Origin: Azolla caroliniana | Taxonomy: Eukaryota > Plantae > Polypodiophyta | Assembly (NCBI GenBank): GCA_043228905.1 | Contig: JBHGNT010000001.1 | Coordinates: 12,028,001-12,092,000, forward strand | Length of the DNA stretch: 64,000 nt | Reading direction: 5' to 3' | Shown here: positions 1 to 48,541 of the stretch, one piece after another | Layout of the letters: every line of letters begins with the position of its first letter | How positions within the stretch are numbered: position 1 is the stretch's first letter | The notes under the pieces: model-generated | The model's database searches: none | What the model saw: the letters and a program-made list of their open reading frames with translations, nothing else | Told to the model about the DNA's origin: nothing | Translations under genes and position numbers: made by a program

Positions 1-1048
1 ATGGGAAGATCACTTCTGATGGAGAAGCTTTATAGGAGCAGCTACGCATCTTGGTCATACAAGATGCACCAATACCTGTTAGGGCATGGGTATTGGAGTT
101 ATGTCAATGGAGCAAATGATGCAATATCAGATTCGACACACAAGGATTTTTCGGCCTGGGAACAATTGGCAAGCAGAGTTCTTTATTGTTTCACATCCAG
201 TGTCCGTGATCAACTATTGAGCTACATCCGGGACGCCAAGACCCCAAGACCCCAAGAGGCCAAAGGAGGCTTGGGGAACTCTGAAGAAGATTTTCGACGC
301 GAGCACTATAACTAGAAAGCTTCAGCTTAGGCAGGAGCTGAACAACGTCTAACAAAGAGACATGTCAATGGCTGACTACACCTCCCGGATCAAGGACATC
401 TGTGACTCTCTTGCCTCCATCAACGTGACTGTCGTGGAGGACGAAATGGTGCAGTTCTATCTCGGAGGATTGACGCAAAAATTTAGATAAATCCGAACAA
501 CGGTTTGCATGAGAGTTGCAATTGATACTTCTCGTTGAAGAGAACCACGCGGGTATGTCAACGAGTATGCACACCGACAACAAGATGTCGTACACGGAAG
601 AAATAGGCCCTGTGGTCTTGGTGGACAAGGGAGGTTGGCACGCAATGGAGGCGGCCAATAAGAGCAAAACTGAAGGCATAATTGAAATGCGAACAACAAT
701 TCTGGACCCTCCAGAAACAGGGGGAGTCAAAGCGGCGCCGGAAACTGGCAAGGAAAGACTGACACGGAATGTTGGTAATGTGGCAAGAAAGGCCATAGGG
801 AGAGCGAGTGTTGGAAGAAGCGGGCCGATTCGAACAAATCCGGATCCGGTAAGGCCGAACAAGGGAACCGGAAATGGATTGGGCCCAACCTTTAGGATGA
901 ACCACAAGGCTAATTCGAGGAAGACATGCATCTCGGAACTGAATGAGGTATGGTATGTTGATTCTGGTGCGTCAAACCATATAACGTACGATGAGAAGTG
1001 GTTCTCGTATTTGGAGAAACTGAAACCATCGAGGGTCGTCGAAACCGG
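1..1048 (+). pseudogene. gag: copia gag and protease of element A (frameshifts and stops)
   Basis: ORFs 1..315 and 516..1148 carry copia gag motifs. A CWxCG...H...C knuckle is present in another frame, and DSGAS is the aspartic protease motif. Confidence 0.85.
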
Positions 1049-1926
1049 TGTCTTGAAGATTCCGGGCCATGGTGAGAAACCGGGGAATGTCGGAAGAATT
1101 GGTGGGGTGGAGCATGTGCACTCACCCTTGTACAAAGGGTGTAGGTGATAGGGGTACCTTTATGGCGCCGAGTAGGAGTTAAGTCGGGACAGAGAATCCC
1201 ATGTAAATCGGGATTTATCCCACATTGTTACGCATCCCTCTCCTTGTTCTATAAAACGAAGGGAGGGTCCCTTGTAGAGGGGTTGCCCATTTTGAGTTAG
1301 GAGGGTATACCGTTAGATTTAGGGTTTGCTAGTTCTTGGTCTTCATCTTTCTCTTATTCCCTTGGCAGCTTCCTTCTTCTTCTTACTTTCTTGTTTTTGG
1401 TTAGGGTTCTTCGCCTTCTTCTTCTCATTCGTGTTTGTTTAGGGTTGAGTTCGATGAAGAGCTTGTATGTTTAGAGGGGTTTGCTTCTGCTCAGTCTCCT
1501 ATGCAAGTCCCCGCTCGGCGCGATGAGCCCGAGAGCTCCCCAATCGGCGGCTTGGCAGCAGACGGTTGTTGTAACCTAACCTACCTTGGTCCGGCTTGAA
1601 GCTGGAGTTGTACCTGGCTCTTGTAATTATATATATAAAAGGTTGGGCATATTTGTGTTTTTGTTGGTGTCGGATGCATTTCTTTCCCTTTGTTTCTTGT
1701 ACATAAGAGGCGTGTGTTGAGTCGGTGTTTCGAGCGTGGTCTCTCTCTCTCTCCCTCTCTCGTGTTCGGAAGGCGCCAGTATGCGTCCGAAATCACTCCA
1801 GTTTGCGCCGCAACCGGTACAACCGGAACTGGTGAGAACTCGGCTTCTCGACACCCATCTCTTCCTCATTTGAGACGCCTATGGTCCCCCCCCCCTTTCG
1901 ACACGTACTCGCGGATTACCTTGACA
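1049..1926 (+). repeat. 5' LTR of element B
   Basis: TGTCTTGAAG...CTTGACA, direct repeat of 25804-26689. TATA (CTATAAAA) at about 1249, TTAGGGTT motifs and a (CT)n tract. Confidence 0.85.
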
Positions 1927-1930
1927 TCTT

Positions 1931-1948
1931 TGGTGAACCCGATGTGAA
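1931..1948 (+). promoter_or_regulatory. Primer binding site, tRNA-Trp
   Basis: TGGTGAACCCGATGTGAA matches at 17/18 the complement of the plant tRNA-Trp(CCA) 3' end (...UUCACGUCGGGUUCACCA, recalled). Confidence 0.8.
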
Positions 1949-2364
1949 AGGGCAACAAGGGAGGATGGAGTCAGAAGACGATAACTTCGCGGAGATGGTG
2001 GTCGAAGTGGTGTTAGAGTTCAGATGAGTGGTGGTGAGACGGGAAGCGGCGCAACAAGCTATTGAGTGAGTGGTCGAAAGAGTTGGTTGTTTCAACGGGG
2101 ACAAAGTCCCATTCTACTTGGAAGCCTACAACGCAAAAATGGAGGAGCGAGACGAGGACGAGGCATTGAGGCTGGAGTTCTTCTGCCGGGTCGTCGCCGT
2201 CCATATGCACGCGGAAGTGAAGGAGCTCCGAGAAGCTCATAGTTTGTGGGAGGGCTTCGAAGAGGTGCTCCTGCAAGCATATGGAGGATGAAGGAAGAGC
2301 CATGGATGACACGGCTTCGACCAGTGGGTTGCATTGGCAAAGACCCACCGGGGCGCAACGAAGG

Positions 2365-2835
2365 TGTTATGTACACATAACGTTGGTGAGGGTAGGTCAC
2401 TAATATTTACATTAGTGAAGGGTATGTTCACTATTATTAAAAAGGGGACTAATGATTGGATAGAATGAATGATATGTGCATGCACTATCATGATTTAGAC
2501 AACCAATGAATAGAGAGCCTTTTAGAAAGGCACATCTATTCAAGGGGCCTAGGAAAAGGTATAAATATGAGGCTTAGCTACCCTCATAGGTATCAAGTCG
2601 GAAGGCTGCTGTCGTAGACACCGGTGGTGCGGGCTAGGCTTTCGTCTCGACGATCGTGTTTATCTCTTCCAAGGTATTAGTCATCCTAATATCCGGCGGT
2701 ATGGGACGTCGGTGGTAGGTTGGCTATGTCTAGATCATAGCTCGGGGGTGGTCGGGTGGAACGGGTTCTTCTATCCAATCTATTTTCTTCCTTTTTACTT
2801 GATTTGGTCTATTGATTAGTAATAGACTCTTAACA
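2365..2835 (+). repeat. 5' LTR of element C
   Basis: TGTTATG...TTAACA, with TATAAATA at about 2560. Confidence 0.97.
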
Positions 2836-2836
2836 G

Positions 2837-2848
2837 TGGTATCAGAGC
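2837..2848 (+). promoter_or_regulatory. PBS, initiator tRNA-Met
   Basis: TGGTATCAGAGC, 1 nt after the LTR. Confidence 0.95.
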
Positions 2849-3079
2849 TTTTACTAACAATTTTTTTGTTGTTTTGATGTTTTTGCGTGTGAGCGAGGGG
2901 GATCTAACAAGGCTCGTCATGCTCTTCTCAGGATCAAAACAACACTCTAAACCCGCTATTCTTCTTTTTTGATCTCTTCTCTTTTTCTATTATGCGTTCT
3001 TTATGGTCGAATCAAATTGGTATTACGTTTTATTCTCTTTCTTTCTACCTCCTACTACGCTACGATTTTACTTATTATT

Positions 3080-3610
3080 ATGCATCGGGCCGAGCGTGTT
3101 TGCACTAATCGCACACGCTCAACACATGGCCTTTTGCATATTGTGATATATATCCCACTCTCTCCTCTCTTGAACTCTTACGATAATAATTATTCTTGTG
3201 CATTGGGTCGAGCGTGTTTGCTCTAATCGCACACGCTTATCTCATGGCCGTTTTGCATATGATGTTGAGTATACCACTCTTCCCCTCTATTGAGCCATCA
3301 CTTGGCCGATTCTAAGGGATGATGTGGCCTTGACGAGGTGTATGTTGCCTACCTATGCCACTCTACTCTCTATTAAGCCATCAATTGGCCGATTCTATGG
3401 GATGTTGTGGCCTTGACAAGGTATATGTAGCTTACATATGCCACTTTCCTTTTTAATTAGCCATCAATTGGCCGATTCTAAGGGATGATGTGGCCTTGAC
3501 GAGGTATATGTCACTTACCTATGCCACTTTCCTCTTTAATTAGCCATTACTTGGCCGATTCTAGGGATATGTGGTGGTCTTGAGGAGGTGCATGTCAACT
3601 ACCCTAGGGT
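3080..3610 (+). repeat. Tandem repeats in the leader of element C: two units of about 120 bp, then about four units of 83 bp
   Basis: GCCAT(C/T)A recurs at 3294, 3377, 3460 and 3543 (83-bp period). GAGCGTGTTTGC...GCACACGCT occurs at about 3092 and 3210. Confidence 0.9.
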
Positions 3611-4599
3611 TTCGTATCTTAGGGCATGTTTGATTCCATACACCTAATTGTTGATTATTCTAATTAAATTTTAATTTCATAAGTATTGTTTCACTTATAT
3701 GATTTTCTAGTAATTATTATTTACCCGCCCACAATTAACTCTCCTTTTTCCACTTCCTTTTCATGTATAAAGTATTTACATCGTTTATTTTAATGTAACC
3801 TTTACGTGTAGACTATTTTTTTCGTATAGAGTGGCTTGTTGAACGATTTTTTTTTTTTTTTTTTTTCAACGGGTCATCTAGGTTTAACTCTTATCATCAA
3901 GCCTTAGAAAACGAGTAAAACCATATGAGTTTCCTTATTGATGTTTTACTCATGGATTTGAGTATTACATCTTTGCGCACAACACCGTCATCACTTGTAT
4001 CAATTTGTGGCTTATGTCACAATTGTGCAAGTTATAACAATCATATTGGGATGTATATGTGCATACCTTGCACTTCCCATTTATTTGTGACATTGTTTTT
4101 TTCGTAGGTAACACATGGGTTCTTTTTTTTTACCCTTGTTTTCGTCACTACTTAACTCTTATGAGTAGTGCCTTATTTTATCATTTTATCATCACGTTTG
4201 CTTATTGCTCGCAAGACTAGAATATTACTTGTGAGTGCACTTGTTTTTTCACGTAATACACTTTCTCGACCATATAATACATGATGGGTTGGCATTAATA
4301 TAAGGCTATCTAGGAAATTTCATTGATGTAAGAACCATGGTTGAGCCTCGGGGAGCCGCCATGATTACTCAAGATAGAGATCCGAGAAATACATCTTAGC
4401 TATGTTTTCCCCCATGGTTTTTAAAACACCATAGTGTTACCATAGTTATCGGATCTCGAATCACATCTCATATGTCTAGAGGGGTAAAGACATGAGATAC
4501 TTTCTTGGATAAAGTTCTTTCAATCAAAATTTCAAGCATTCATTTTGCTTGTGTATTTTCTGAACCTCCTTATTTTATTGCATACCCACAGCGTGCATC

Positions 4600-7500
4600 A
4601 TGGAACAAGTTTTGAACGCAGTTGGAACGATCTCTCCAAATGAGACCTCTCAACCCCAATCCGCATCTCGCACACAAGCTGAGATCACTATTGAGCAATT
4701 GCTCACTACTACCTTGAATCAATTGGCCGAAATGAGACAGGCCAATATGGCATTGGAAAAGAAATTCCAAGAATTAACTATTGAGTCCAAGAAAGAAGGT
4801 GAACCTTCCTTCGTAGTCACGCCTTTCAAGGGAGATAAGAAAGAAAGAACCGAGGAGGCTATTAGCACTTGGCTTGGTCGTTGGGAGTCTCACTTTGAGC
4901 TTCATCCCAAGCCCGATGCAGTAAAAATTGGTTATGTCGGTCGTGAGTTAGGTGGCCAAGCTGCTGCTTGGTGGCGTGGCCTAAGGACCGCAAAAAACTT
5001 ACCCACAACTTGGGAAGGTTTCGTTGATGTTTTTAAGAAACAATTCTTGCAGCCACCTTCTCAAACCGAACAAGCGCAACACTTGCTCACATTGTCTAGT
5101 AAGCCATTTACCTCTCTCGAGAATTATGTGCATCACGCTCGGACCCAGATCCAAAAATCGGGACTTACGGGTGAGAAATGGTTTGTCGCTTGTTTTTTGA
5201 ATGGTATTCCCAATGGGGATTATCATTGGATTGTCCATGACAAGGACCCCACAACTTTCGAGGAAGCCGTCAACATTGTGCTGCGATACCATAGGACTTC
5301 CAAGAAAGACCACAATAAACCTGAGCTCGCCAAAACTCCGAATGTCAAGTTCATTGGGAAACGTAAGCAATCCAGTGACACTCTTGACCGCAACTCAAAG
5401 AAACCGAACCTCTTCTGTGCATATTGCAAGAAGCGGGGCCACACAAAGGATACCTGTCGTCGTCTTGAGAGGAAGTCAATGAACACCCCTCAAGACAAAT
5501 CTACGAGTCACACAGGTGAGTCTTTTGATATTGTTGAAGTTCATACCAATCACTTAAGTTTATGTGAATGCACTTTTCCTTCACATTTACTTGGACCTAA
5601 TGATTTACTCCGAGCAGTCGGATATATCAATGGAACACAAGCACATTTCTTGTTTGATTCCGGTAGTTCTCACAATTTTCTTAATGATCACTTTGTGCAG
5701 CAAATGGAGCTCCACATAAACGGAAGTGATCATATCTATCAAGTTCACATGGCAAATGGAAACGTTCAATACATCAGTGGCATTGTTTGTCAACTGCCAA
5801 TTCAAATAGATACTTATTTGGAGAAGCTTGACTTTCATGTTATGAAATTACAATCCGCAGATGTCATTTTAGGATATCCTTGGTTTTTTAATAAAAACCC
5901 TTCTTTGTCCATTGATTGGGTTAATCACTCAATCACATTTGAACTTAATAATTGTAAACATTTTATTCAATGTTCCAAACTTCCTTCTCATTCACTTGTG
6001 TCTTCTAAATCTTTAAGTGAGTATTCTAGTTCATTAATTTATTCGTGTGTAATTGATCCTGCGGTTCAATTTTATTATTTTAATATTGACGCCACACAAT
6101 TACCACATTTTGAGCAACGATTACTCGACTCTATTTTAGAGGATTTTCAAGATGTGTTTCCTACTGAATTACCGCTTACTTTACCACCTAAACGTAATGT
6201 GGACCATCAAATTGAACTCATCCCTGGGGCTGCTCCTGTGAGCATTCCACCTTACCGACTTAGTCGATTAGAAGAGGATGAGATCGCTAAACAACTTAAG
6301 GAATACTTGAGTATGGGCCACATTAGGTATAGTAAATCACCTTGGGGTGCGCCAGTTCTATTAGTCAAGAAGAAGGAAGGTTCGTGGCGAATGTGTATCA
6401 ATTATCGCCGTTTGAATAAAATGACAATTAAGAATGCATATCCATTACCTCGTGCCGATGATTTGATTGATCGTTTGCACGGGGCTCGATATTTTACGAA
6501 AATTGACTTACGAACTGGTTATCATCAGATTCGCATCGCCGAGGATGATATTCCTAAAACCGCTTTTCGTACGCGCTATGGCCATTATGAGTTTTTAGTC
6601 ATGCCGTTTGGGTTGACTAATGCTCCAGCCACATTCCAACAAGCGATGAATGATGTTTTCCGAGATCAACTCGATGATTTTGTTGTCGTCTTCTTGGATG
6701 ATATTTTGATATATAGCCGTACCTTGCAAGATCATGTTCAACATGTTCGATTTGTTTTGCGAAAGTTGCGTGACAACTCTTTCTATGCAAAACATTCAAA
6801 ATGTGACTTCTTCCAAAAATCTATTGTGTACCTAGGTCATTTAATTACAGAAAATGGCGTTGAAATTGAACCTTCTCGTATTGAAAAGGTTAAACTTTGG
6901 CCCATTCCTCGTAATATTCGTGAACTTAGATCATTCTTAGGGTTTGTTGGATTTTTACGAAAATCAATTCGTAACTATTCCAAATTGACTACGCCATTAA
7001 CTGACCTTTTAAAAGGTCATCCACGTAAGTCTGTCAAACCAATTTCATGGAATGAACAACTTGACAAATCATTTGAGACACTCAAGGAGCATGTGTGTCA
7101 GGCTCCCACTCTTCTATTACCAGACCCTTCTAAGCCTTTCTCAATTGAAACCGATGCTAGTGATTATGCTATTGGTGCAGTTCTTTATCAAGGTGGTCAC
7201 CCTATTGCTTTTGAAAGTAAGAAGCTTGATGTTGCTCAATCTCGGTATTCGGTTCAAGAGAAAGAGTTGTTTGCGGTGATACACGCACTTAAAACATGGA
7301 GGCACTATCTCTATGGAAATAAATTTGTGGTTACAACAGACCATCAATCATTAAAGTATTTTTGTGACCAGCCCGATCTTGTTGGTCGTAAAGGCCGTTG
7401 GGCTGACCTTATGCAAGATTTTGATTTTTCCATACGCTATCGCAAGGGTTCTATGAACACCGTTGCTGATGCTCTTAGTCGCATTAAAGAAGTTAACATG

Positions 7501-9000
7501 CTTAGCTTCACGGAAATAAAATCTGATCTTTTAGATCACCTTCGAGGGAAATACCTTGATGACAGTTATTTCTCAAAATACTGGACGAAAGCCGAATCTG
7601 GTTTAGATGCCGACACTAGCACCCTACCCTCGAAGGCGACCTTTCACATTACAAACGGTTTGCTCTACCGTAGTGGAAAGGTCTGTGTTCCAGATTTACC
7701 AAATGTTAAACAGAAATTTTTTCATGAATGTCATGATGCACCATCTGCTGGTCATCCTGGAATACAACGCACACTCGTTCTCATCTCGTGTACTTTTTTC
7801 TGGCCTAAGATGCGCTCTGACGTGCATAAATACGTAACTCAATGCTTACAATGTCAGATTAATAAGTCGGAACGACTTAAAGCTGCTGGTCTTTTACATC
7901 CCTTAGATATTCCCAACAATAAATGGGAAAGTATCTCGATGGATTTTATTGTCAGTTTACCTCGTACACAGAGGGGTCATGATGCCATATGGGTTGTCGT
8001 TGACAGGCTAACAAAATTAGCTAGATTTATTCCTACAAAAACCACGGTAACCGCTCAACAGTTGGCTTATCAATTTGTTGATGAGTTATTTCGTTTTTAT
8101 GGATTACCGATGGATATTGTTAGTGATCGAGATTCCAAGTTTACTAGTGACTTTTGGACTCAGGTCTTTAAGAAACTAGAAACTACGTTGAGCATGAGTT
8201 CCGCAGATCATCCTCAGTCTGATGGACAAACTGAACGAGTTAATCAAATTATTGAGGACATGCTTCGAGCTTATGTAGCAAAAACCCCTTCTAAGTGGGA
8301 GCAATACCTTCCTATCTTAGAATTTGCCTATAATAGCTCTAAACATACATCCACTGGATATAGTCCTTTTATGTTGATGTATGGTTTTCAGCCACGTGCC
8401 CCAGTTGATGTCACGATTCATCGTGATACATTAGACAGTACACGCAATTTTTTGCAAGACATGAACCAAATGTTGCATATTGCCAAAGAAAATGTCAAGA
8501 CAGCTCAAGATCGTGCTCGATTTTATGCTGATCAGGATAGACGTCCTCGTGCATTTACTATTGGTCAAAAAGTTTTTTTGCGTGTCCCGACTGATTCTAC
8601 GTCATTATCTACGGGCAAGTGCGCTAAGTTAGCCCCACGATATTGTGGCCCATTTGAAATCCTTAAGCGAGTTGGGTCATCTGCTTATCACCTTGCCTTA
8701 CCTCGTAACGTTGGTATTCATCCTGTTTTTCACGTCAGTCGTCTAAAACCATTTTTAGGCTCTGGTGATAACACCATCACAATCCAAGATCTTGTAACAT
8801 TAGAGGATTTTTCTTACAAACCTCATGTTCCTGAACGAATTCTTGATTCTCGTACTAAACGTTTACGTTCTAAAGAGATTCGGCTATTCAAGATCAAATG
8901 GATGGATAAACCTATTGATGATGCCACATGGGAACGCGAGCATTCGCTTAATGCACAATTTCCTCACTTTATATTGCAAGAGTGCAATCTTTTGAAGTAG
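4600..9000 (+). CDS. gag-pol: Gag-Pol polyprotein (gag, CCHC, protease, RT, RNase H, integrase, chromodomain), 1466 aa
   Basis: Motifs in order: [14 protein letters not shown]; [11 protein letters not shown]; MPFGLTNAP...FLDD; ETDAS; [12 protein letters not shown]; SMDF/SDRD/TER; YCGPF; C-terminal PERILD..IKW..DATWE chromodomain. Confidence 0.98.
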
Positions 9001-9007
9001 GGGAGTA

Positions 9008-9478
9008 TGTTATGTACACATAACGTTGGTGAGGGTAGGTCACTAATATTTACATTAGTGAAGGGTATGTTCACTATTATTAAAAAGGGGACTAATGATT
9101 GGATAGAATGAATGATATGTGCATGCACTATCATGATTTAGACAACCAATGAATAGAGAGCCTTTTAGAAAGGCACATCTATTCAAGGGGCCTAGGAAAA
9201 GGTATAAATATGAGGCTTAGCTACCCTCATAGGTATCAAGTCGGAAGGCTGCTGTCGTAGACACCGGTGGTGCGGGCTAGGCTTTCGTCTCGACGATCGT
9301 GTTTATCTCTTCCAAGGTATTAGTCATCCTAATATCCGGCGGTATGGGACGTCGGTGGTAGGTTGGCTATGTCTAGATCATAGCTCGGGGGTGGTCGGGT
9401 GGAACGGGTTCTTCTATCCAATCTATTTTCTTCCTTTTTACTTGATTTGGTCTATTGATTAGTAATAGACTCTTAACA
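9008..9478 (+). repeat. 3' LTR of element C
   Basis: Copy of 2365-2835. Confidence 0.97.
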
Positions 9479-12264
9479 GAAGGCATTCCGAGAGTTTGAG
9501 CGTCGGCTTGCTCGGCTCTCGGAGCGGGAGCAAAGTCTGGTGGGGGCGGACAAAGTCCTGTTGTTTGTTAGGTCGATCGACCAAGCAGAACGGGAGGCCA
9601 TCAGGATTGAGCTCGAAGACGATGTCGGAGCGAATGGCCTTACCGAGGACTGGTCGGAAGTCGAACAAGTATGCCGACGGTTGGACGAGGAGAGGTCCTC
9701 GAAAGGCAAAGGGAAGATAACACGCAACGGCGTGTCATCATGGCAGGAAGCGGGCACAAAACAAGAAGGATTGGCGAAGCTTGATGTTGAAGCCTTGGTC
9801 TGGGAAGCGTACGAGGCTCTGAAGGCGATGGTTGAAGAGGAAGAGAGATCCGGCACGCGGACGGATTCCGAAGACATAGAGCAAGTTGGCCTTCCGGACA
9901 AGGCGGACATGGTCTAGGCAGAGGCTGACCGGGGAGGGTGTGGAGTGAGACGCCCTCTCGACTTGCGGAGAAAGACCGGCCAAGGAGGAGGTCGGTAGCG
10001 GAGAAGAGCCCTCCATGCGGATTCCGGAGACTCCGGCAGTCAAGCCCATGTGCCGACATAAGATTGGAGAGATGGAAGGCGCCACCAAGGAGTCCTGGCA
10101 CGATGCCAGCGAAGATGGATGGGGAACGGCTTGCGAGAAGGTCGAGGACGGAGCCGCGACAGAGAAGAAAGAGCAAATGAGAGCCAGCGCCGAAAGGAGC
10201 GGAATCGGAAGTCGACCTAACCGGGGATCGAATTGGTCGGCGTTGCGATTCGGGTGGAGCACGATCAGAGGTGGATCGTTCGACAGGGTCAAGGTTCGGT
10301 ATGAAAGTGCCGATACGGGAGAGGGTGCGGGACGAGCTGCCTTTTTCTACATGGGGAGAAAGACCGACCAGGCGAAGGTTGGGAATCGAGAAGAAGATGA
10401 TAGAGAGTACAAAACGAGTCCGGCGGGATAGGCATCGGAGCCGAAACTCCGGACATTGGAGAATCAAGGCCAGGCGAGCTTGATCAATCATAGAACGGAT
10501 GCTTTCCATCGACACCACTAAAAGGGTCAGTGGCCTGGGACAAGTCGTCGGAGTCATTACGAAATCGGTATCCCCACATCTTGACCGGAGACTTCGGCAG
10601 TTCGGCCGGCGTGGCAACGTGAGACTGAAAGAGAAGCGAGATGGCGGGGAAGCGCAAGGGAGGGGGTCGACGACGGCGGGAAAAACGAAAGAGGCGGTTG
10701 ACTGAAGTATGGGTCTTCCACACTCGTTCCCGAGACTTAGGCAGTTGCATCCTAGAACCAACGGAAGACCTAAGAGACTGAAAGTGGCGGCGAGGACGTG
10801 GAGGTCACGGCCAATACAATCAATCTGGAAGCGAAGAACGAAGACTGGTCCTATGGGTCACCTCACACCGGGCTAGAGACTTCGGAAGTCAGCAACGGAG
10901 CCAATGTAAGACCAATAGACTGACGGTGGCGGCAAGGGGACGAGGGCAAAGGCAACGATAGGACGGTCCTATGGGATCCTCACATCAATCCGGAGACACC
11001 GACAGTTCAAGCGGACATGGCAACATGAGACCGAGTGAGAAGGATGGTGGCGGCAGGAAACGGGAACCGGTGATGCGGGAAGAGAGAACGAGCGGGCATG
11101 GCGGTATTAGGATGGCAAGGCGGCCATTAACCAAAACCGGGCCTTCCGGCAAGGAACAAAGGGAGAATCAGGAACCGACCCGGCCATAAGACAATGCGAA
11201 AGACGAGAGGAGAGAAAGCAAGACGGTCCTTGGGATCCTCACACCGATCCGAAGACACCGGCAGATCAAGCCGACAAGGCAACGTGAAACTTAGTGAGAA
11301 GGATGGTGGCGGCAGGAAAGGGGAACCGATGATGCGGGAAGAGTGGACCGGGAGCCGGCGAACCAGGAGCTGGCGAGGCCAGAGTTGATAGGGGCCGAAC
11401 CCTTATCGGCTGGATACGATTTCGGAGGAAAGCCGGTGAGGGGTGAGCAGGGGCGGATCGGAAGACGTGTGTGTGGCCATCGAGGGCGAAAGCAAAGCAC
11501 GGGTATGGAACGTCATTCGACATAGGCGGTGCTGAACAAGGGAGGCGGAAGACGGCACACGGCGGTGCCGGGAATGAGAGCACGGGCGCGTAACAGACTA
11601 CACGGGTTGGAGACCGGAAACAGGATTGAGGGTCGGAGAAGGATCCTCCACACCTGCTTCGGAGATCTCGGCGGCTCAGTCAGAGCGGCAACGACTGGCG
11701 TGGCAAGCCAAACCCAAGGTAACAAACTAGTGGGGGCGAAGGGACGACGCCATGCGGAAGGCTCTGAACCAGTGACAACATCAGAAGACGGAAGTGGCCA
11801 AGCAGGTTACTACGGGGTGTTCCTCGTACGCGGAGAACACCGGTATGCGGAGAAGCGGCGATGCACGATCTAGCCAGACGAGGGCCAACGACGCGTGCAT
11901 GGGAAGTAACCGGAGTTCGGCACGGGCGGTGTCGAACATGAGAAGGGAATGCATAGCACACAGAGGTGCCGGAGCAGGAATATAATCGTGACGATGGGTT
12001 GCCGGTCCAGATGATCTCACGTTGTCGCAGTATTCCGCAAGTGTCAAAACCAAGGATAAAAGATAGAGTGATGGAAGAAGGATATTAGAGAACATGAGAA
12101 GAAAGGAACCAAATACTAAGAGAAGAATGGATGTATAAGATAGAGAAAGAAAGAGAATGGATACAAGATATGTAATGAGAGCTAAAAACTGGTGTTGATT
12201 CGAATTGATTTGAGAATACATGTATGCCCTTATTTATAGGTTCCTATAGAATAGCTTAGAGATT

Positions 12265-12325
12265 AGAATGTTCTAGAATGTTCTAGACCTAGAATGCTCT
12301 AGGACATTCTAGAACATTCTAGAAT
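12265..12325. promoter_or_regulatory. Heat-shock-element (nGAAn) array in U3 (second copy at 17593-17653)
   Basis: AGAATGTTCTAGAATGTTCT and CATTCTAGAACATTCTAGAAT each give four contiguous alternating nGAAn/nTTCn units, just upstream of the minus-strand TATA at 12231-12238. Confidence 0.75.
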
Positions 12326-12394
12326 AATCTAGAGTTTTTACAATAATCAATGTAATACAAGAAGTAGTGTTTATTTTTTCATATAACAATAAGC

Positions 12395-12460
12395 TATCTT
12401 AATGGTTGAGGTTTTCAAGTATGGATTACAAGGTTCGAGGTTCAAGTCTGGGTGACGCCA
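12395..12460 (+). promoter_or_regulatory. tRNA-like Pol III A-box/B-box module inside the LTR (second copy at 17723-17788)
   Basis: TATCTTAATGG at 12395 and GGTTCAAGTC(T/C) at 12439. The 44-nt offset is as in tRNA genes. Confidence 0.55.
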
Positions 12461-12529
12461 TAATGGTCATGTGTTCATGACACTATCCCTCCTTCGAGAA
12501 CGCCGAGTGGAAGTCGACGTTAACATTGT

Positions 12530-15500
12530 TGGGCCAGGCTTGTTTGGATAGTGACGATGGGAGTCATTGACCAGAGCTTCGGCATTACAAACGTTATCGA
12601 TGGGTTCCCAAGTGCAATCACTCAGAGATAGCCAAGCCAATCAAATAGATAATAAAGCTTATTGCGCACAATCTTAGAATCGAGAATAGCAGCTACCTCG
12701 TATTCGGGGCCGTCCACAAGTTGTACAGAAGGCGGTGGTGGCACGACACGATTAGGAATTTTAAAGAGGTGCGGCAAGGTTCCAAAAGAGAGCTATGAAA
12801 GACAGGGTGAAGCCGCATATGTGCAGGAAGGTTAAGACGAAATGTTGCATCATTAATCTGCGCTGTGATGACAAAAGGACCTAAGCGTTGATAGTCAAGC
12901 TTAGCACACGGTCGGGTAGTCTTGATGTGACGACGAAGCAACCATACACGGTCACCAACCTTAAACGGAGACTTTAGGCGATGTCGATCGGCATTGGTCT
13001 TATGGTGTGCTTGCGCTTTCTGAAGATGTGACGATAAGTCGAACTGGATTTGTTGTAGTCGGTGGAGGTGATGCGCCGCACTAGGGTTTCGTGACACCTC
13101 GGGAAGATCCAGTATACACCATCGAGGGTGGTTGCCGGTGTAGGCAAAGAAAGGTGTAACTTTGGTAGAAGAGTGGACCGTGTTGTTGTATGCAAACTCG
13201 GCAAGATGTAAAATATTACTCCAATCATCTTGTTGATAACTAATGAAACATCAAAGATATTGCTCGAGCGTTTGATTTGTGCGCTCTGTTTGTCCGTCAG
13301 TTTGTGGATGATAAGCCGAAGAGAGTTTGCAAGAGATTTTGAGGCCTGTCCATAGGTGCTTCCAAAAGTGTGAGATAAATTGAGGACCTCGATCGTTAAT
13401 CATATCATTCGGGAGACCATGATGGCGAAACACTTCACGCATAATGAGATCTGCAGTTTCTTCACTATTGATGGTCTTTACACATGGTACAAAATGTGCC
13501 ATCTTGGTGAACCGATCCACTACTGTTAAAATGGTATCAAAGCCTTTGGAAGGTGGCAGATCCGTAATGAAATCCATAGAAATAGATTGCCATGGCTTGT
13601 TGGGAGGGGGTAATGGTTGTAGTAAGCCATAAGGGTGATGCCGGGGTATTTTGGCACGACAGCAGGTGTCACAAGTGCGAACATAATCTTCGACAAATTT
13701 TTGCAAGTGAGGCCACCAAAACGAACGTTTCACCAGCTCAATGGTCTTGGATATACCAAAATGTCCAACCATGGGGGCATCATGACAATGTTCCAACACT
13801 TGAAGTCGAGGTGATCCGTCGGGGACGTAAAGGAGATTCTTGTAGAAGAGTAAGCCATCTTGCCACTTGAAGTCCTGATAATGTTGAGATGACCCTGGCA
13901 ATGTGGAGCAAGATGGACGACTTGAACCACAGTGGGCTAAGACATCCTTAGCAAAATCATCCGAATGAAGTTGTTGTCGAATAGTGTCAAGAAGGGTAGA
14001 ATCAAGTGGCGTGGCATAAATTGTTGTTACCTGTAGCTTTGATGGCCCGAGGAGAGTTTGCTTTTGATTGTCAAAGGCCAGATCTCCAGGTCGAAGTGCT
14101 AGATACGAACGCCGAGACAAAGCATCCGCTTTCCCTTGTTGTTTTCCGGGGCGAAAAATGATCTTGAAATTGAAACGCGTTAGAAATTGGGCCCACCGAG
14201 CTTGTCGTCTATTTAATACTAGAGATGTTTGAAAATATGTGAGATTTTTGTGATCACTATAAATGATAATCTGATGAGGTGATCCTTCTAGAAAATGACG
14301 CCATTGCTCGAATGAGTCGACCACAACTAGTAACTCCTTGTCATGCACCTCATAGTTTATCTCTGAAACAGTAAATTTTCTCGAGTGAAACGCGAGTGGA
14401 TGTGTCTGCTCGTCCTCGCCTGGTTGTGATAGGATACTCCCCAATGCAAAATCTGATGCATCCGCCTCAATAGTAAATGGCTTTTCAGGATCAATATGTG
14501 CTAGGATGGGTGTTGATGTGAATGCCTCTTTCAGCTGCGTAAAAGCCTTGTCCTCTTCGATACTCCAAAAAAATGCTTGATTTTTCTTGCTGAGTTGAGT
14601 AAGGGGCAACACAATGCTTGAATAATTATGTATGAATTTGCGATAGAAGTTCACAAATCTAAGGAAACACTGGAGATCCCGAACTGAGCATGGGGGTTTC
14701 CATTCCAATATTGTTTGGACTTTTTCCGGTCCATGAAAACACCCTGGGATGAAATAATGTATCCCAAAAATTTGACTTGTTTGCAATCAAAATTGCATTT
14801 CTCAAGTTTGGCATAAAGACCATACTTCCTTAGGCGTTCAAGTACTTGCCGCACATGTATATCATGCTCCCCCTGTGTTTTAGAGTAAATCAATAGATCA
14901 TCTACATAGATGATTAGAAAAATATCCAAGAAATCCCGGAAGATGTCATTTGCCATATGTTGGAATACTATAGGTGCATTTGTGAGCCCGAAAGGCATGA
15001 CTGTATACTCGAAATGACCATACCGAGTACAAAATGTTGTTTTCCACTCATCTCCCGACCGAATTCGAACAAGATTATATGCACCCCTTAGATCAATTTT
15101 GGTAAAATGCTTTGCCCCACCAATGTGTTCTAAGAGATTGGAGATTAAAGGTAAAGCATACCTATTTCTTATGGTGACTTTATTTAAGCCTCGATAGTGC
15201 ACGACCAAACGAAGGGAGCCGTCATTTTTCTTCACAAAAAAAGATAGGAGCACCACCTGGAGACTTTGAATGTCGAATAAACCCATGTGCAAGATTTTCC
15301 TCGATGTATTCTTGAAGAACCTCAAGCTCAGTGGGTGATAAATTGTAAATCGGATCCCACGGTGGCTCTTTTCCTGGTTGGAGATCAATAGGACAGTCGT
15401 ACGACCGATGCTTTGGAAGAACACTAGCTTTGACTTTGTCGAAAACATCAGCATAGTCTTGATATTTTTTGGGAATTTGGATGTTTGAATTCCCTTGAGT

Positions 15501-16130
15501 GACACGAGAAGGTGTCACTGATACTGCAAATAAGAAAAGGTCCTCCTTGCCTCCCACTTGGCGCAATTGTTGCAATGTGATGGCTGAAATTTGATGAGAA
15601 GGATATGGTGCATCGGTAGAACTATATACTTTAGGAGGATAATCCCGAGTTCGATCCTTGACAATGATATTTTCTACTAAAGGGCACCTAATTTCTCGCT
15701 TCCTCCAATCGATTCTAGGGTTGTGTAGCTTGAACCATGGCAAACTAAGGACAATTGGATGCTCAGGACTACGGATTATGTTAAAGGAAACTACACATCC
15801 TAAATCACCCAAGAGTATGTGTATTGGCTCAGACTCTTCAAATATCTTCCCGGAAGCTATGGGGCGTCCATCAATCACTACTACGGAAACTGGACAAGGA
15901 TGTGTATGCAAGGATATTTGGTGTTTTTGGGCAAAATCTCTATCCATGAAACAAGAATTGGCTCCAGTATCTAAGAGGACTTGGACTTGAAGTTGACAAC
16001 TGGGTGTCCTAACTTGTACTAGGGATGAGAAGACTCTACTAACATGCTTGGAAGAAATAGAACCCACACTAGGTTGTACATATCTAGGGTTGTCCAACCA
16101 AATGGCTCCTATTTTGGCTGAACTTATTCG
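12530..16130 (-). pseudogene. pol: pol of element E (PR-RT-RH-INT-chromodomain), few frameshifts
   Basis: LLDTGANSCF; YVDD; EADAS; HDAPMVGH..CDTC; SMDF; RLGPF. A group-I-like chromodomain (EYEVAAILDS...DWLGY...TWEP) lies at about 12560-12710. Confidence 0.93.
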
Positions 16131-17287: not shown

Positions 17288-17320
17288 GGTTTCAAGATGG
17301 TTACAAAGGAGGATAAGAGA

Positions 17321-17355
<35 letters not shown>

Positions 17356-17360
<5 letters not shown>

Positions 17361-17367
17361 GAATCAA
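17356..17367 (-). promoter_or_regulatory. Self-priming PBS
   Basis: Minus-strand TTGATTCGAATT, 2 nt after the 5' LTR, is perfectly complementary to minus-strand AATTCGAATCAA at 17534-17523 in the LTR. Confidence 0.8.
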
Positions 17368-17369
17368 AC

Positions 17370-41812: not shown

Positions 41813-42537
41813 TTGATTATATCATTTATGGCTATTTGATGGAACGATTTGTTTAATATACGCATATGTGGTCACGTGTATACGTATTTGATCGTATATA
41901 TGTGATAATATACATATGTGTATATAAGTTATTACGTTGTCGTGAAGAATTTCGGCCAGAGGCGAAAACCGGGAAACATTGGCTACATCGGCGGGGTGCA
42001 GCGTGTGTACGCACCCATGTACATTTAGTGTGAATATCGAGGGCGCCTTTAAGGCGCCGACGAGTAGTCAAGTCGGGACAAACGATCCCATGTAAGTCGG
42101 GATTTGTCCCACATTGTAACGCATCCCTTTCCTTGTTCTATAAAAGGAAGGGAACGCCCTTTGTGTAAGGGTTGCCCATTTTGCATTAGCGGGTATACCG
42201 TTAGGTTTAGAGTTAGGTTTCTTCTTCTTCTTCTTCCCCTTCGTGTTTGCTTAGGGTTTGCTTTGGTTCGGCCTCCTGTGCAAGACCCCGCTCGGTGCGA
42301 CGAGCTGAGAGCTCCCCGACGGCGGCTTGACAGCAGACGACTACTGTAACCTACCTCAGTCCGGCTCGACGCCGGGAATGTATTCTTCCCTTTATATATA
42401 TATATATACGTTTGTCTGTGTATATTCGCGTTGTTGTTGGCGTCGGGTGCTTACCCTCTCCTGCGTTTTCTGTACATAAGGCGTGAGTCGGGTTGGGTTG
42501 TGCGTGTGTGCGTGTGTGTGTGAGTCGGTGTTAAGCA

Positions 42538-42575
<38 letters not shown>

Positions 42576-42709
42576 TCGGTTGCTTCCGGTGTGCTTCTGG
42601 GATGCCCCGGAAACGGTGAAGTGCGACTTCCTACGCTCCATCCCTCCCTAGTCCAAGACCCCCGTGGTCCCGCATTTCCCCACGCACGCGCGTAACAACG
42701 CGACATATT

Positions 42710-42727
42710 TGGTGAACCCGACGTGAA
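42710..42727 (+). promoter_or_regulatory. PBS, tRNA-Trp
   Basis: TGGTGAACCCGACGTGAA is an 18-nt complement of the plant tRNA-Trp 3' end (recalled sequence). Confidence 0.85.
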
Positions 42728-42742: not shown

Positions 42743-44005
42743 ATGGAGTCGGAAGACGACGACCTTGCGGAGATGGTGGCCAAAGTGGTGTTGGAGTCGG
42801 CACAAGTGGTGATGAGGCGAGAAGCAGCGCAACAGGCGGTTGAGCGAGTGGTCGAAAGAGTCAGCCGTTTCAACGGTGACAAAGTCCCATCTTACTTGGA
42901 AGCCTACAACGCGGAAATGGAGGAGCGTGGCGTAGACGAGGCGTTGAGGCTGAATTTTTTCTGTCGGGTCGTGGCTGTCCGGATGCATGTGGAAATAAAG
43001 GAGCTCCGTGAGGCTCATAGTTCGTGGGAGGCCTTCGAAGAGGCGCTCTTGAAGGCATACGGAGGACGGCGGAAGAGCCGGGGACGACACGACTTTGACC
43101 AGTGGGTAGCATCGGCAAAGACCCACCGGGGCGCGACCAAGGCGTTCCGAGAGTTCGAGCGACGACTTGCTCGGCTCCCGAAGCGGGAACAAGGTTTGGT
43201 GGGGGCGGACAAGGTCCTATTGTTCGTCAGGTCGATCGACCGAACGAAACGGGAAGCCGTCGGGATTGAGCTCGAAGACGATGACAGAGCGAATGGGCTT
43301 ACGGAGGACTGGTCGAAGGTCAGAAGGGTGTGCCAACGGCTAGACAACGAGCGAGCCAAGAAGGCTAAGATGAAGGGACGCGACGGCGTGCCATCACAAC
43401 GGGAAGAGGCCAAATGGCAAAGAGAGTCGGCAAGGGTCAGCGTTGGGGCCAGGATTGCGGAGGCGTACGCAGCTCTCGAGGCGATGCTCGAGGAGGAGGA
43501 AAGACGGAGGCCGCAAGCCGAGACTGAGAAGACGGACTTGCCCCACGCGACGGCGGAAAATCGGTACCACGGTACCACGGGAGAGGGTGCGGAACGAAAC
43601 GCCCTCTCGACTTGCGGAGATAGAACGGCCAAGGACGAGGCCGAGATACAGATCGCGGAACTGGAACGTTGGGACCAGCGGTTTTGGGCGTGTCAGCCCG
43701 AGATCCCGGTCATTGGAGAAGCAAGCCCAGACGGGGCTTGCGCGATCGGTAAGAAGACGACCGCCGACCACGGAGAGTCGGTGGCTACGGACAGAAGCGT
43801 AAAACGGACGGGCGATTCTTTGTGCCTTCCCACACTTGCTCCCGAGACGATAGCAGTCGGGCCTGAGTGCCCACGTAAGTCTGAAGCGGAGGAAGGCGGC
43901 GGCGATAGACTGAGAATCACCGGCGAGACGATACGGGGAAGGAACGGACGAGCCCACGGACCCGATTCCGGAGAACTCGGCATTCGGGCCCGTATGCCCA
44001 TGTAA
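42743..44005 (+). CDS. gag: Gag-like protein (420 aa; conserved N-terminal capsid-like half, low-complexity tail)
   Basis: The ATG is 15 nt after the PBS. FNGDKV..YLEAYN.EME, SWEAFEEALLKAY, FDQWV and LLFVRSID are conserved with element B. No CCHC motif seen. Confidence 0.7.
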   Translation: MESEDDDLAEMVAKVVLESAQVVMRREAAQQAVERVVERVSRFNGDKVPSYLEAYNAEMEERGVDEALRLNFFCRVVAVRMHVEIKELREAHSSWEAFEEALLKAYGGRRKSRGRHDFDQWVASAKTHRGATKAFREFERRLARLPKREQGLVGADKVLLFVRSIDRTKREAVGIELEDDDRANGLTEDWSKVRRVCQRLDNERAKKAKMKGRDGVPSQREEAKWQRESARVSVGARIAEAYAALEAMLEEEERRRPQAETEKTDLPHATAENRYHGTTGEGAERNALSTCGDRTAKDEAEIQIAELERWDQRFWACQPEIPVIGEASPDGACAIGKKTTADHGESVATDRSVKRTGDSLCLPTLAPETIAVGPECPRKSEAEEGGGDRLRITGETIRGRNGRAHGPDSGELGIRARMPM

Positions 44006-44806: not shown

Positions 44807-47800
44807 TAGGCATAAGGAAGTCCGGTCCTACGGGATCCCCACACTGGTTCCGAAGACTCCGGTTGTTCGGCCAACGTGGCAATGTAAGACCGAGGGAGAA
44901 GGAAGGTGGCGGCGGGAAACGGGACCCGACTACGCAGAAGACACGAGGAGAGTTTGGGAGGGACTCAAACAAAAGACACCTGAATGACGGCAAGCATAGA
45001 AATGGAGTCCGGTCCTATGGGACCCTCACCCCAATCCGGAGACTCCGGCAGTTCGGCCAACGTGGCAACATGAGACCGAGAGAGAAGGTTGGTGGCGGTA
45101 GGGAACGGGACCCGAAGACACGAGGTTTCGGAAGGAGCCGGTAGGGGCAAACACAGGGAGGTGTGTCAGGCCGGAAGGGCACACCTGGAACAGAACAAGA
45201 GTCTCGCAAATGGTCATCGCGGGCCGGATCGAAGCATGACTACGGGACGGTGTTCGGCGCGGGCGGGGCCGAACAAAGGAAGCGAAAGACGGCACAAGAG
45301 AGGTGTTGGGAACGAGGTGACAAGTGCCTAGTGGACTGCACAAGGCCGGAGTCAGGGGATGGCAAGAGAGGCCGGAGGAGGATCCTCCACACTCGCTTCA
45401 TAGATCTCGGTAGCTCCGTCGAAGTAGTGAAGACTGACACGGCAAGCCCGGGGTGACAAGCTGGTGGGGGCGAGGGGACGACGGCAAGCGGAAGACTCAG
45501 GACCTACCGCGGCAGCACGAAGACGGGAAGGGCCAAGCGGGCTACTACGGGGTGTTCCTCGGATGCAAAGGACACCGGTATGCGGGTGAGCGGCGATGCA
45601 CGATCTGGCCGGAAAAGGGCCGACAAGGCGTGCTATGAACCGGAGTACGGCACAAGCGGTGCCAAACAACGGGCGAGGGTACATGGCACACGGAGGTGCC
45701 CGAGCGGAAAGGTGAGCACGGAGATAGGTTGCGCGGTTCGGAGGTATCGCGGAGAAGACCGGAAAGGGATCCCCACCACTGTTCCGGAGACCATGGCGGT
45801 TCGAGCCGACGCGGCGATGTAAGACCATGGAGAAGGAAGGTGGCGGCGAGAGGACGAGGGCAACGCGAAACGACATGGGACGGCAATCAAGACGACGCGA
45901 ATGATCAATGGAGGCCAAGCGGGTCGCTATGGGCGCTCCTCAAACGGAGGACATCGGGCATACAGCGGGAAGCGGAGCGTTCATACGGCCGAACAAGGGC
46001 CAACAGAAGTACGCGTACTACGGAGATCGTGGCAGAGGACCCATCGACGGGTCAGACGAGCCTACGGGGAGGTTAGCGCGAAGGAAGAATCGAAGCCGAC
46101 GGATCAAACCGGCAGCGAGCCGGGATGCGGATCACGGGAGACCGGTTTCTCGCCGGACGAAATCTCTCACCCTTCAACCAGATTTGGCACGTACCGGTGG
46201 ACGTGTAGTTAGGTGGGGGTGGATGTCGTGAAGAATTTCAGCCAGAGGCGGAAACCGGGAAACATTGGCTACATCGGCGGGGTGCAGCGTGTGTACACAC
46301 CCATGTACATTTAGTGTGAATATCGAGGGCGCCTTTAAGGCGCCGACAAGTAGTCAAGTTGGGACAGACGATCCCATGTAAGTCGGGATTTGTCCCACAT
46401 TGTAACGCATCCCTTTCCTTGTTCTATAAAAGGAAGGGAACGCCCTTTGTGTAAGGGTTGCCCATTTTGCATTAGAGGGTATACCGTTAGGTTTAGAGTT
46501 AGGTTTCTTCTTCTTCTTCTTCCCCTTCGTGTTTGCTTAGGGTTTGCTTTGGTTGGGCCTCCTGTGCAAGACCCCGCTGGGCGCGACGAGCTGAGAGCTC
46601 CCCGACGGCAGCTTGACAGCAGACGACTATTGTAACCTACCTCAGTCCGGCTCGACGCCGGAAATGTATTCTTCCCTTTATATATATATATATATATATA
46701 CGTTTGTCTGTGTATATTCGCGTCGTTGTTGGCGTCGGGTGCTTACCCTCTCCTGCGTTTTCTGTACATAAGGCGTGAGTCGGGTTGGGCTGTGTGTGTG
46801 TGCGTGTGTGCGTGAGTCGGTGTTAAGCACGCTCTCTCTCTCTCTCTCTCTCTCCCTTCGGTTTCTTCCGGTGTGCTTCTGGGATGCCCTGGAAACGGTG
46901 AAGTGCGACTTCCTACGCTCCGTCCCTCCCTAGTCCAAGACCCCCGTGGTCCCGCCTTTCCCCACGCACGCGCGTAACAACGCGACAACGTGATTTTAAT
47001 ATCGAATGTTTTCCTTTTCGGGGAAAGGATCTTGGTGGCCGTCCTCACATTTTTGTGAGAATGGCGTTGTCACCATCCCTTTTTTCAACAATTTTTTATT
47101 GTTGACATTCCCGTTGGTGACTTCAATTTTATTACGTAAAGAAATGCCTATAGCCACAATGATGTTGAGAACGTAGGGCTTGACCCACTTCATGTGAGGT
47201 CGCTCCTATGACACACATATCCAACATCCCTCCCTCGTTACATGGATACGATGCCACCATGAGATCATTCTTACGAGAGGCATTCATAATGACGTAACCA
47301 TGTGATGCCACGTGGGTCTACTACGAAAACAGGGCTCATTTGGCTTGACCATTAGGTTGCACTTTGGCGTATGCCATCGTAATTACAAGACTTGAGGTTA
47401 GGTAATGTACCAACATATTTTGTAGTAAACGAGGGGGAGATAAGGACTCTTGACATATATATTTCTTTTAAAAAAGCATATATGGGCAAATGTCGCGCAT
47501 ATCTCTTATATGCATGGCACATTAAACATTCAAGAAGAGCAACCTACTTGGTCGGCGCAAGTGTTTAATGCATTTGTTCTCGAGGTCTCAAGTTCAAATA
47601 TGACCAAGACCATAAAACATCGTTGATACACATGACTATAACACATGTTTAGACTTGAGGTCTAAGTGCACTTCGGGGTCCCCTTAATAGGACTTAAAAG
47701 AACCGAAACCACATATGTGGGCACCGGAACATAGTTTATTGTTAACATTTTTTTCATGTATAAATTATTCATGATGCAAACATACATGCTTGAGCCTCGG

Positions 47801-48051
47801 GGAACCACTAGGGGAAAAAAATCGATATAGAGATTAGGGAAAGACATTAATTTGTCACCCCCATGGTTTTTAAAACACCTTCGTGTTACCATAGTAACCT
47901 CATCTTGAACCTCATCTCATACGTCTAGAGGGGTATTGACGTGAGATCATGATATCGATTAATGTTTGCCCATGATATGTTTACATCACGGCATGATGTT
48001 ATGACTATTTGTCTGACCTTATCATATTTCTTTGCCAGAAATAATCATTCA

Positions 48052-48430
48052 ATGGCTCAAAATAATGACTCGATGTCATCCGCTCAAGCGGAAGGAACTC
48101 AAGGAAATCCTCCTAGACAAATGTCCATTGAGATGTATTTTTCACAAATAACCCAATACCTTACTTTCACCACTCAACAGATGACCGAACTTCGGCAATC
48201 TCAAAGTGCTCTCGAGGCACGTCTCGACGAATAGACCTGATGCGCGACAAGGTGAACCATCATTTGTCGTTAAGCCATTTACAGGAGAAAAAAAGGAAAG
48301 AACCGAAGAAGCAATCTGCACATGGTTGGGCCAATGGGAGTCTCATTTTGAGCTCTATCCCACGCCAGATAGTACAAAGATTGCATATGTCGACCGAGAA
48401 CTAGGGGGTAAGGCCGCCGCCTGGTGGCGT
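48052..48430 (+). pseudogene. gag: gag N-terminus of element M
   Basis: Homologous to about aa 1-126 of the ORF at 4600. Ends at AAAWWR, where an LTR is inserted. Confidence 0.85.
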
Positions 48431-48541
48431 TGTCGTAAAGATTTTCGCCCACGGTGTGAAAATTTCATGGAATGTACAAAATCGAGTGTGGTTCTTCACA
48501 CACAATATGGAACAATAATAATGAAGATATTATTTTATATC
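48431..48541. mobile_element. LTR-end fragment resembling the Trp-primed group
   Basis: TGTCGTAAAGATTTTCGCCCACGGTGTGAAA resembles TGTCGTGAAGATTTCTGGCTTTGGTGTGAA. It is preceded by GCGT. Confidence 0.55.

What the first reader, a model, noticed from the sequence alone, without database searches (positions are those of the whole stretch)
1045..48434. Trp-primed LTR group inserts at CpG with a 4-bp NCGN target duplication
Seen: every insertion of the TGTCG...CGACA LTR group has a 4-bp TSD centred on CG. The pairs are CCGG/CCGG (1045, 26690), ACGT/ATGT (12019, 25329), ACAT/ACGT (20814, 21582), ACGG/ACGG (32324, 32896) and ACGT/ACGT (41934, 46988). Two unpaired ends are flanked by GCGT (48427) and ACAG (30487). 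All deviations are CG>TG or CG>CA decay. The seven other delimited elements have 5-bp TSDs without CG (GAAGG, GCAAG, ATATA, GCAGA, GAAAG, ATAAT, GGTGC), which serves as an internal control. Established: plant LTR integrases usually give 5-bp TSDs with weak sequence preference. Inference: the integrase that mobilises this group reads CpG, possibly methylated CpG, which would steer insertions into CpG-rich TE bodies including its own family.
Basis: partly seen in the sequence, partly recalled or inferred. Interest (0 to 1): 0.8.

Follow-up and report, generated by a model that had tools for sequence, protein, structure and literature searches.

The report
Phygy-type retrotransposons insert at CG
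Copies of this plant jumping-gene family nearly always sit in a four-base duplicated site with CG, or its decay products, at the centre, a real pattern that is already published for the moss Phygy lineage, to which these elements likely belong.

Summary
All 12 flanks are as quoted, and empty-site comparisons show exactly 4 duplicated bases at 5 of 5 paired sites. In 95 related metagenome loci, 56 of 73 distinct right junctions have central CG and 11 have TG/CA, against a CG background of 3.3%. It is not new: Neumann et al. 2019 list the Phygy lineage as 186 elements, 4-bp TSD 100% NCGN, tRNA-Trp primer 81%. The window copies are gag-only elements and solo LTRs. An intact Ty3/gypsy relative (L050) shares their termini, PBS and PPT, has no chromodomain, aRH or methyl-CpG-binding domain hit, and itself follows CCGT. 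Added here: the motif is VCGB with ACGT commonest, a sharpened form of the foamy-virus VYRB consensus. Methyl-CpG reading is untested. Steering into the family's own copies is weakly supported (2 of 7 window sites, 2 of 71 outside). Formal Phygy membership by RT phylogeny could not be tested.

The parts
1045..1048 (.). left TSD copy CCGG of element E1, in a Copia pol region
   Evidence: 3 of 3 paralogues give a 4-bp overlap
1049..1926 (+). E1 5' LTR (termini decayed to TGTCT...TGACA)
   Evidence: LTR pair 89.8% identical
1931..1948 (+). E1 primer-binding site, same type as E5 and L050; tRNA-Trp assignment is recalled, not tool-tested
1958..25803 (+). E1 internal region: gag-like sequence and repeats, no RT/INT of its own family; interrupted by a chromovirus (2365-9478) and by solo LTR S12
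12019..12022 (.). left TSD copy ACGT of solo LTR S12 (insertion into its own family)
12023..25328 (-). solo LTR S12, split by a Gypsy element (12042-17810, TSD GCAAG) and a Copia element (18002-24466, TSD ATATA)
20814..20817 (.). left TSD copy ACAT of solo LTR S20
20818..21581 (+). solo LTR S20 inside a Copia element
21582..21585 (.). right TSD copy ACGT of S20
25329..25332 (.). right TSD copy ATGT of S12
25804..26689 (+). E1 3' LTR, preceded by the family PPT
26690..26693 (.). right TSD copy CCGG of E1
30487..30490 (.). unpaired flank ACAG of element U30, in a Copia LTR
   Evidence: paralogue reads AAGG
30491..31068 (-). 3' LTR of U30; PPT at about 31069-31090; internal region runs to about 33590; 5' LTR not found in the window
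32324..32327 (.). left TSD copy ACGG of solo LTR S32 (insertion into its own family)
32328..32895 (-). solo LTR S32, 92.6% identical to the U30 LTR
32896..32899 (.). right TSD copy ACGG of S32
41934..41937 (.). left TSD copy ACGT of E5, in an AT-rich high-copy repeat
41938..42705 (+). E5 5' LTR, TGTCG...CGACA
   Evidence: LTR pair 97.2% identical
42710..42727 (+). E5 primer-binding site (tRNA-Trp type, recalled)
42743..44005 (+). E5 gag-like ORF (420 aa); first 215 aa 40% identical to the gag of autonomous L050
46224..46987 (+). E5 3' LTR, preceded by the family PPT
46988..46991 (.). right TSD copy ACGT of E5
48427..48430 (.). unpaired flank GCGT of U48, in a chromovirus-like gag
   Evidence: paralogue has GCGT
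48431..48545 (+). U48: truncated LTR start, cut off by Copia-like sequence

Best explanation
The window holds seven insertions of a gag-only LTR family and its solo LTRs, each in a 4-bp site centred on CG or its decay products, likely mobilised in trans by an autonomous Phygy-type Ty3/gypsy element whose integrase likely reads the CG bases directly, with no need for methylation. Shown: 4-bp duplication; central CG; T avoided at the first and A at the last position, ACGT commonest; no RT/INT in the window copies; an intact relative (L050) with the same termini, PBS and PPT. Inferred: L050-type elements supply the enzymes. Inferred from the foamy-virus intasome: a 4-bp stagger needs a sharp kink at a central pyrimidine-purine step, which gives the VYRB pattern; this integrase would add base contacts that narrow YR to CG. 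Candidate contacts (inferred only) are an invariant acidic residue at or next to PFV Ala188 and a conserved Gln/His/Lys-bearing segment in the C-terminal SH3 domain. TG and CA centres would be C-to-T decay after insertion.
For: 56 of 73 right junctions CG, 11 TG/CA, 1 TA, although TG, CA and TA are each about twice as common as CG in the flanks. TG/CA share at the TSD (11 of 74) is close to decay of the LTR's own terminal CpG (9 of 74), and ends with an intact CGACA keep CG more often (51 of 61 versus 6 of 13, Fisher p 0.008). Among 57 CG-centred ends, T first in 1 and A last in 1 against 36% background; ACGT 23 against 5.3%. PFV consensus VYRB and its reproduction on naked DNA: PMC4422553 passages. 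L050: two overlapping open ORFs, RT-RH-INT, D-D-E aligned to PFV, preceded by CCGT; window gag and L050 gag group at 96/89. Phygy row: 4 bp 100% NCGN, tRNA-Trp 81%, 7656-9968 bp; L050 comes to about 8.8 kb. Drosophila ZAM-group elements prefer CGCG (PMC5408687 passage) in a genome essentially without CpG methylation (recalled).
Against: No experiment separates methylated from unmethylated CG. All seven window targets are repeats, which are presumably methylated. Only 1 of 8 metagenome solo LTRs with both ends had matching 4-mers; chimeric assembly is the likely cause (L021 and L027 share a left flank but differ on the right), but this was not proven. Six of 73 junctions fit neither CG nor simple decay; at least two of them have poorly delimited termini. 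L050 comes from a metagenome, not from the window's genome, and its LTR is about twice as long as those of the window copies. The residue mapping to PFV is ambiguous by one position and did not reach Arg329.
Confidence: 0.72

Rival explanations
1. The integrase prefers methylated CG, so that the insertion step itself aims the element at methylated repeats.
For: All 7 window targets are repeats and 2 are the family itself; at least 25 of 69 outside flanks match a repeat in the small local library. A precedent for methyl-CpG guidance exists through a captured MBD in arthropod Copia elements (PMC6673714 passages).
Against: The window is all repeats, so its targets carry no information. No MBD or chromo hit in L050 at E 0.05. 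Outside flanks are not CpG-rich (o/e 0.76) and 2 of 71 are self-insertions. Local base preferences of PFV and HIV-1 hold on naked DNA.
Confidence: 0.15
2. The integrase reads CG but is hindered by the methyl group, so it uses unmethylated CG sites, which become methylated and decay only after insertion.
For: An invariant acidic residue near the target-contact loop (E in 82, D in 15 of 97) could read unmethylated cytosine (inference). Outside flanks have ordinary composition.
Against: Many insertions lie inside old repeats. The equivalent PFV residue contacts bases outside the duplicated 4-mer.
Confidence: 0.07
3. There is no base reading: CG is chosen only because it is a bendable pyrimidine-purine step, as for any 4-bp integrase.
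For: The outer positions follow the retroviral VYRB rule exactly.
Against: TA is used in 1 of 73 and TG/CA in 11 of 73 although each is about twice as common as CG; retroviral YR enrichment is only about 63% over random.
Confidence: 0.05
4. The pattern is an artefact of misplaced LTR ends or of chance in a GC-rich window.
For: Mismatched 4-mers at 7 of 8 two-ended metagenome solo LTRs.
Against: The 3' end is fixed independently by 16 LTR-PBS junctions, where T follows the terminus in all 16; empty sites give a 4-base overlap at 5 of 5 window pairs; p 5e-69 for 57 of 74.
Confidence: 0.01

Closest known systems
Phygy clade, non-chromovirus Ty3/gypsy of Physcomitrella patens (Neumann et al. 2019, PMC6317226; read: passages, section 9, Additional file 5)
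   Same: 4-bp NCGN TSD, tRNA-Trp primer, no chromodomain or aRH, coding region fills the internal part, size range fits L050; gag homologous to P. patens A9U5C3 (E 2e-55).
   Different: Gag only 29% identical to the P. patens protein, so a different family and probably a different host; the window copies are non-autonomous; the paper gives NCGN without the VCGB/ACGT detail in the parts I could read and offers no mechanism.
TR-GAG non-autonomous LTR elements (Chaparro et al. 2015, PMC4350172; read: abstract, passages)
   Same: Two LTRs, PBS, PPT and a single gag ORF with no pol.
   Different: TR-GAGs are under 4 kb, from angiosperms, with a 5-bp TSD of varied sequence; E5 is 5.05 kb with a 4-bp NCGN TSD and a long repetitive internal region.
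Prototype foamy virus integrase (PMC4422553; read: passages)
   Same: 4-bp TSD, central YR step, T avoided first and A last; best sequence and fold matches of the L050 integrase together with Ty3.
   Different: PFV preference is weak and accepts any YR; this family is near-obligate for CG.
Drosophila errantivirus-derived gypsy, ZAM and Idefix groups (PMC5408687; read: passages)
   Same: Ty3/gypsy integrases with sequence-specific 4-bp palindromic targets; ZAM group uses CGCG.
   Different: Central step of CGCG is GC, not CG; animal lineage.
CopiaMBD of arthropods (PMC6673714; read: passages)
   Same: Proposed guidance of an LTR element to CpG-rich methylated DNA.
   Different: Works through a captured MBD at regional scale; L050 has no MBD hit and the signal here is at the cut site.
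TatI clade (PMC6317226, Additional file 5)
   Same: 4-bp TSD and tRNA-Trp primer.
   Different: TatI carries an aRH domain in 100% of elements and no NCGN is listed; L050 has no aRH-type hit.

Membership tests
Phygy | Clusters with P. patens Phygy elements in RT-RH-INT phylogeny | not testable with these tools
   The REXdb reference FASTA and element table were too large to read. Indirect: gag homologous to a P. patens protein that carries no lineage label.
Phygy | Ty3/gypsy domain order RT-RH-INT | tested here: met
   L050 pol: RVT_1 285-459, RNase H 525-654, zinc finger 781-835, rve 855-946. The window copies have no pol of this family.
Phygy | No chromodomain and no aRH | tested here: met
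   No Chromo or RVT_3 hit in L050 at E 0.05, while Chromo is found in the window's chromovirus.
Phygy | 4-bp TSD with NCGN motif | tested here: met
Phygy | PBS complementary to tRNA-Trp | tested here: inconclusive
   A conserved 18-nt PBS starting TGG follows the LTR in E1, E5, L050 and 16 loci. The match to plant tRNA-Trp is recalled; searches found no tRNA record to confirm it.
Phygy | Length 7.7-10 kb, polyprotein spans nearly the whole internal part | tested here: met
   L050: LTR 1534 bp, internal 5753 bp filled by two ORFs; about 8.8 kb if the truncated 3' LTR equals the 5' LTR.
TatI | aRH domain in the polyprotein | tested here: not met
TR-GAG | gag ORF only, no pol, with LTRs, PBS and PPT | tested here: met
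   E5
TR-GAG | under 4 kb and 5-bp TSD | tested here: not met
   E5 is 5050 bp with a 4-bp TSD
Chromovirus (Tcn1 and others) | chromodomain after integrase, 5-bp TSD | tested here: not met

The most novel reading that the evidence does not exclude
The Phygy-type integrase is a methylation sensor: its own target-binding surface prefers 5-methyl-CG at the cut site, giving these chromodomain-less elements a direct route into methylated heterochromatin, the first LTR integrase to read an epigenetic mark on the very bases it cuts around.
Probability: 0.15. Interest if true: 0.8.

Novelty: new member of a known kind. Interest (0 to 1): 0.3.

Why it matters
The headline property is published, so the finding mainly shows that Phygy's NCGN rule holds in a divergent family (gag 29% identical to the P. 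patens protein) and passes in trans to gag-only elements. It does supply material for an open question: in my searches NCGN with LTR retrotransposon occurs in one paper and I found no mechanism. L050 is an intact element with a near-obligate CG target, so the residues that turn a weak retroviral YR bias into CG specificity, and any effect of methylation, can be tested directly. Because methylated CG decays, the family's target sites would also wear away in old heterochromatin.

Tried and rejected
No whole genome is held, so no genome-wide logo from the window's own assembly. Viral contigs gave 0 matches to the LTR motif. Paired TSDs from metagenome solo LTRs were not used for length because 7 of 8 pairs mismatch, probably through chimeric assembly. 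I considered that 30491-32895 is one short element with TSD ACAG/ACGG; rejected because a PPT, not a flank, lies inside the 30491 LTR, no PBS lies next to the 32328 LTR, and paralogues give a 4-bp overlap around 32328-32895. Read-laying tables show mixed flanks breaking off after ACG or ACGT in 3 runs, but rows are truncated and alignment extension biases them, so they are qualitative only. Confirming the tRNA-Trp identity failed. A labelled Phygy pol was not found among protein hits; named hits were Riccia. The ESM Atlas only returned generic RT/INT clusters. The integrase model (pLDDT 71.9) matched PFV and Ty3 but gave no residue mapping to Arg329. A link to fungal Ylt1 elements was considered from memory; PMC2864245 passages did not bear on it. 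PMC7466625 does not give TSDs. The count of source assemblies failed and is ignored; the 80 contigs listed come from 13 assemblies with neighbouring ids, which may be one campaign, so they are not independent species. Host not identified; a non-seed plant is inferred from the TE content.
Full report
Observation. The window is a nest of LTR retrotransposons. The family has two full-length copies (E1 1049-26689, LTRs 89.8% identical; E5 41938-46987, 97.2%), three solo LTRs (S12, S20, S32) and two unpaired ends (U30, U48). A shared U5 motif occurs 7 times against 0 expected.

Length of the duplication. Left and right flanks were aligned separately to uninterrupted paralogues. The overlap was 4 bases for E1 (3 of 3), S12 (the 1 of 9 segments that aligned on both sides), S20 (2 of 2) and S32 (2 of 5; two gave 24 and 35 in repeats, one failed). 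For E5, contigs in 3 of 3 public runs carry the left flank, one ACGT and the right flank. The U48 paralogue has GCGT; the U30 paralogue has AAGG, so CG there is inferred. Five of the seven 5-bp controls are exact pairs, two are imperfect, none holds CG.

Larger sample. No genome is held. An exact search for the U5 motif gave 95 metagenome loci, from the same or related hosts (one is 90% identical to E5). Two lack a terminus, 16 run into the PBS and fix the LTR end independently, 77 run into flank; 3 duplicates and 1 internal duplication were dropped. Of 73, positions +2,+3 are CG 56, TG 6, CA 5, GG 2, AG, GA, AT and TA 1 each; background CG is 3.3%. Eleven distinct left junctions show CG (8) or CA (3) at -3,-2 (PPT-preceded starts and one misassigned start left out), which again gives 4 bp. 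Against this, only 1 of 8 two-ended solo LTRs has matching 4-mers; two loci share a left flank but differ on the right, which points to chimeric assembly. The exact-match search favours young copies.

Fine structure. Among 57 CG-centred ends, T is first in 1 and A last in 1 (36% expected) and ACGT makes up 23 (5.3% expected). G is mildly enriched at +5 (28 of 73, p 0.0002). TG/CA centres (11 of 74) occur at about the rate at which the LTR's terminal CpG has decayed (9 of 74), and ends with an intact terminus keep CG more often (51 of 61 versus 6 of 13, p 0.008). The data therefore fit near-obligate CG with later C-to-T decay, not general YR use.

What the elements are. The window copies encode a gag-like ORF with no Pfam hit and no RT or integrase of their own family. 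Locus L050 is an intact relative: LTR 511-2044 preceded by CCGT, the same PBS and PPT, a gag-protease-like ORF and an overlapping RT-RH-INT ORF, with no chromo, aRH or MBD hit. Its gag is 40% identical to E5 gag, and the two group at 96/89 in a 25-row gag tree. Gag relatives are named from P. patens, Riccia and Adiantum; pol relatives from Riccia at about 52-76% identity. Mobilisation in trans is inferred from the shared cis elements.

Comparison with print. Neumann et al. 2019 (PMC6317226) state that Phygy elements have an insertion preference for NCGN and tabulate 186 elements, 4 bp 100% NCGN, tRNA-Trp 81%, 7656-9968 bp, no extra domain. Jedlicka et al. (PMC6911290, passages) also report 4-bp TSDs as commonest for Phygy and GC-rich centres in 4-bp TSDs. 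Phygy-classified elements are reported in a liverwort (PMC12885004, passages). L050 meets every feature I could test; the defining RT phylogeny was not testable because the reference files were too large, and the tRNA-Trp match is recalled. TatI shares 4 bp and Trp but needs aRH. A search for NCGN with LTR retrotransposon found only the Neumann paper; a search for methylated CpG with integrase and retrotransposon found only the arthropod CopiaMBD paper.

Mechanism. The L050 integrase keeps the D-D-E triad and best matches PFV and Ty3 in sequence and fold. PFV makes a 4-bp duplication with consensus VYRB by kinking the target at the central step, and these preferences hold on naked DNA (PMC4422553). 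VCGB is that consensus narrowed to CG. In 97 aligned clade integrases the residue at or next to PFV Ala188 is E (82) or D (15), and an SH3-domain segment carries conserved Leu, Gln, His, Lys and Phe; these are candidate readers by inference only. Nothing here shows a role for methylation. Outside flanks are 41.5% GC with CpG o/e 0.76. The family's own DNA has 9-10% CG against 3-7% in neighbouring elements, so some self-insertion follows from site density alone; 2 of 7 window sites and 2 of 71 outside flanks are self-insertions, the latter a lower bound.

Verdict. Observation confirmed; property already known for Phygy; this is a likely new family of that lineage with gag-only partners. Interest 0.3; the methyl-CG-reading case has probability about 0.15.

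Noticed in passing
window 2365-9478: Chromodomain-bearing Ty3/gypsy element with identical LTRs (472 of 472) and an open 1478-codon frame, inserted into the gag of E1; a very recent insertion.
   Followed up: partly
window 50376-64000: At least three copies of one Copia family nested in each other in opposite orientations; the copy at 53176-58564 has 98.9% identical LTRs and long open frames.
   Followed up: no
window 42743-46223; P0001-P0003; L007, L080: The gag-only elements keep long open frames (880-1518 aa in relatives) in which the gag domain is followed by repeated Gly/Glu/Arg/Thr-rich modules with no Pfam hit; function unknown.
   Followed up: no
window 41500-41933 and 46992-47030: The target of E5 is an AT-rich high-copy repeat with short internal tandem motifs; many empty copies keep ACGT at the site.
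   Followed up: partly
window 27766-27770 and 28363-28367; 49209-49213 and 60126-60130: Two control TSDs are imperfect (GCAGA/ATAGA, ATAAT/ATAAC), so C-to-T decay also hits non-CpG cytosines here.
   Followed up: partly
window 39191-41400: A further repeat with an internal duplication (39191-39395 and 40465-40666) and similarity to a flank of L041; not classified.
   Followed up: no
L082:361-618: An insertion at ACGG directly into the pol of an L050-like autonomous element (58% amino-acid identity).
   Followed up: partly
L047, about 585-610 on the motif strand: The LTR 3' end is duplicated in tandem just before the PBS.
   Followed up: no
P0078, P0184-P0283 (Riccia); P0076, P0085 (Adiantum): Annotated liverwort and fern proteins are gag or pol relatives of this lineage, so it extends well beyond P. 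patens; their TSDs could not be fetched.
   Followed up: partly
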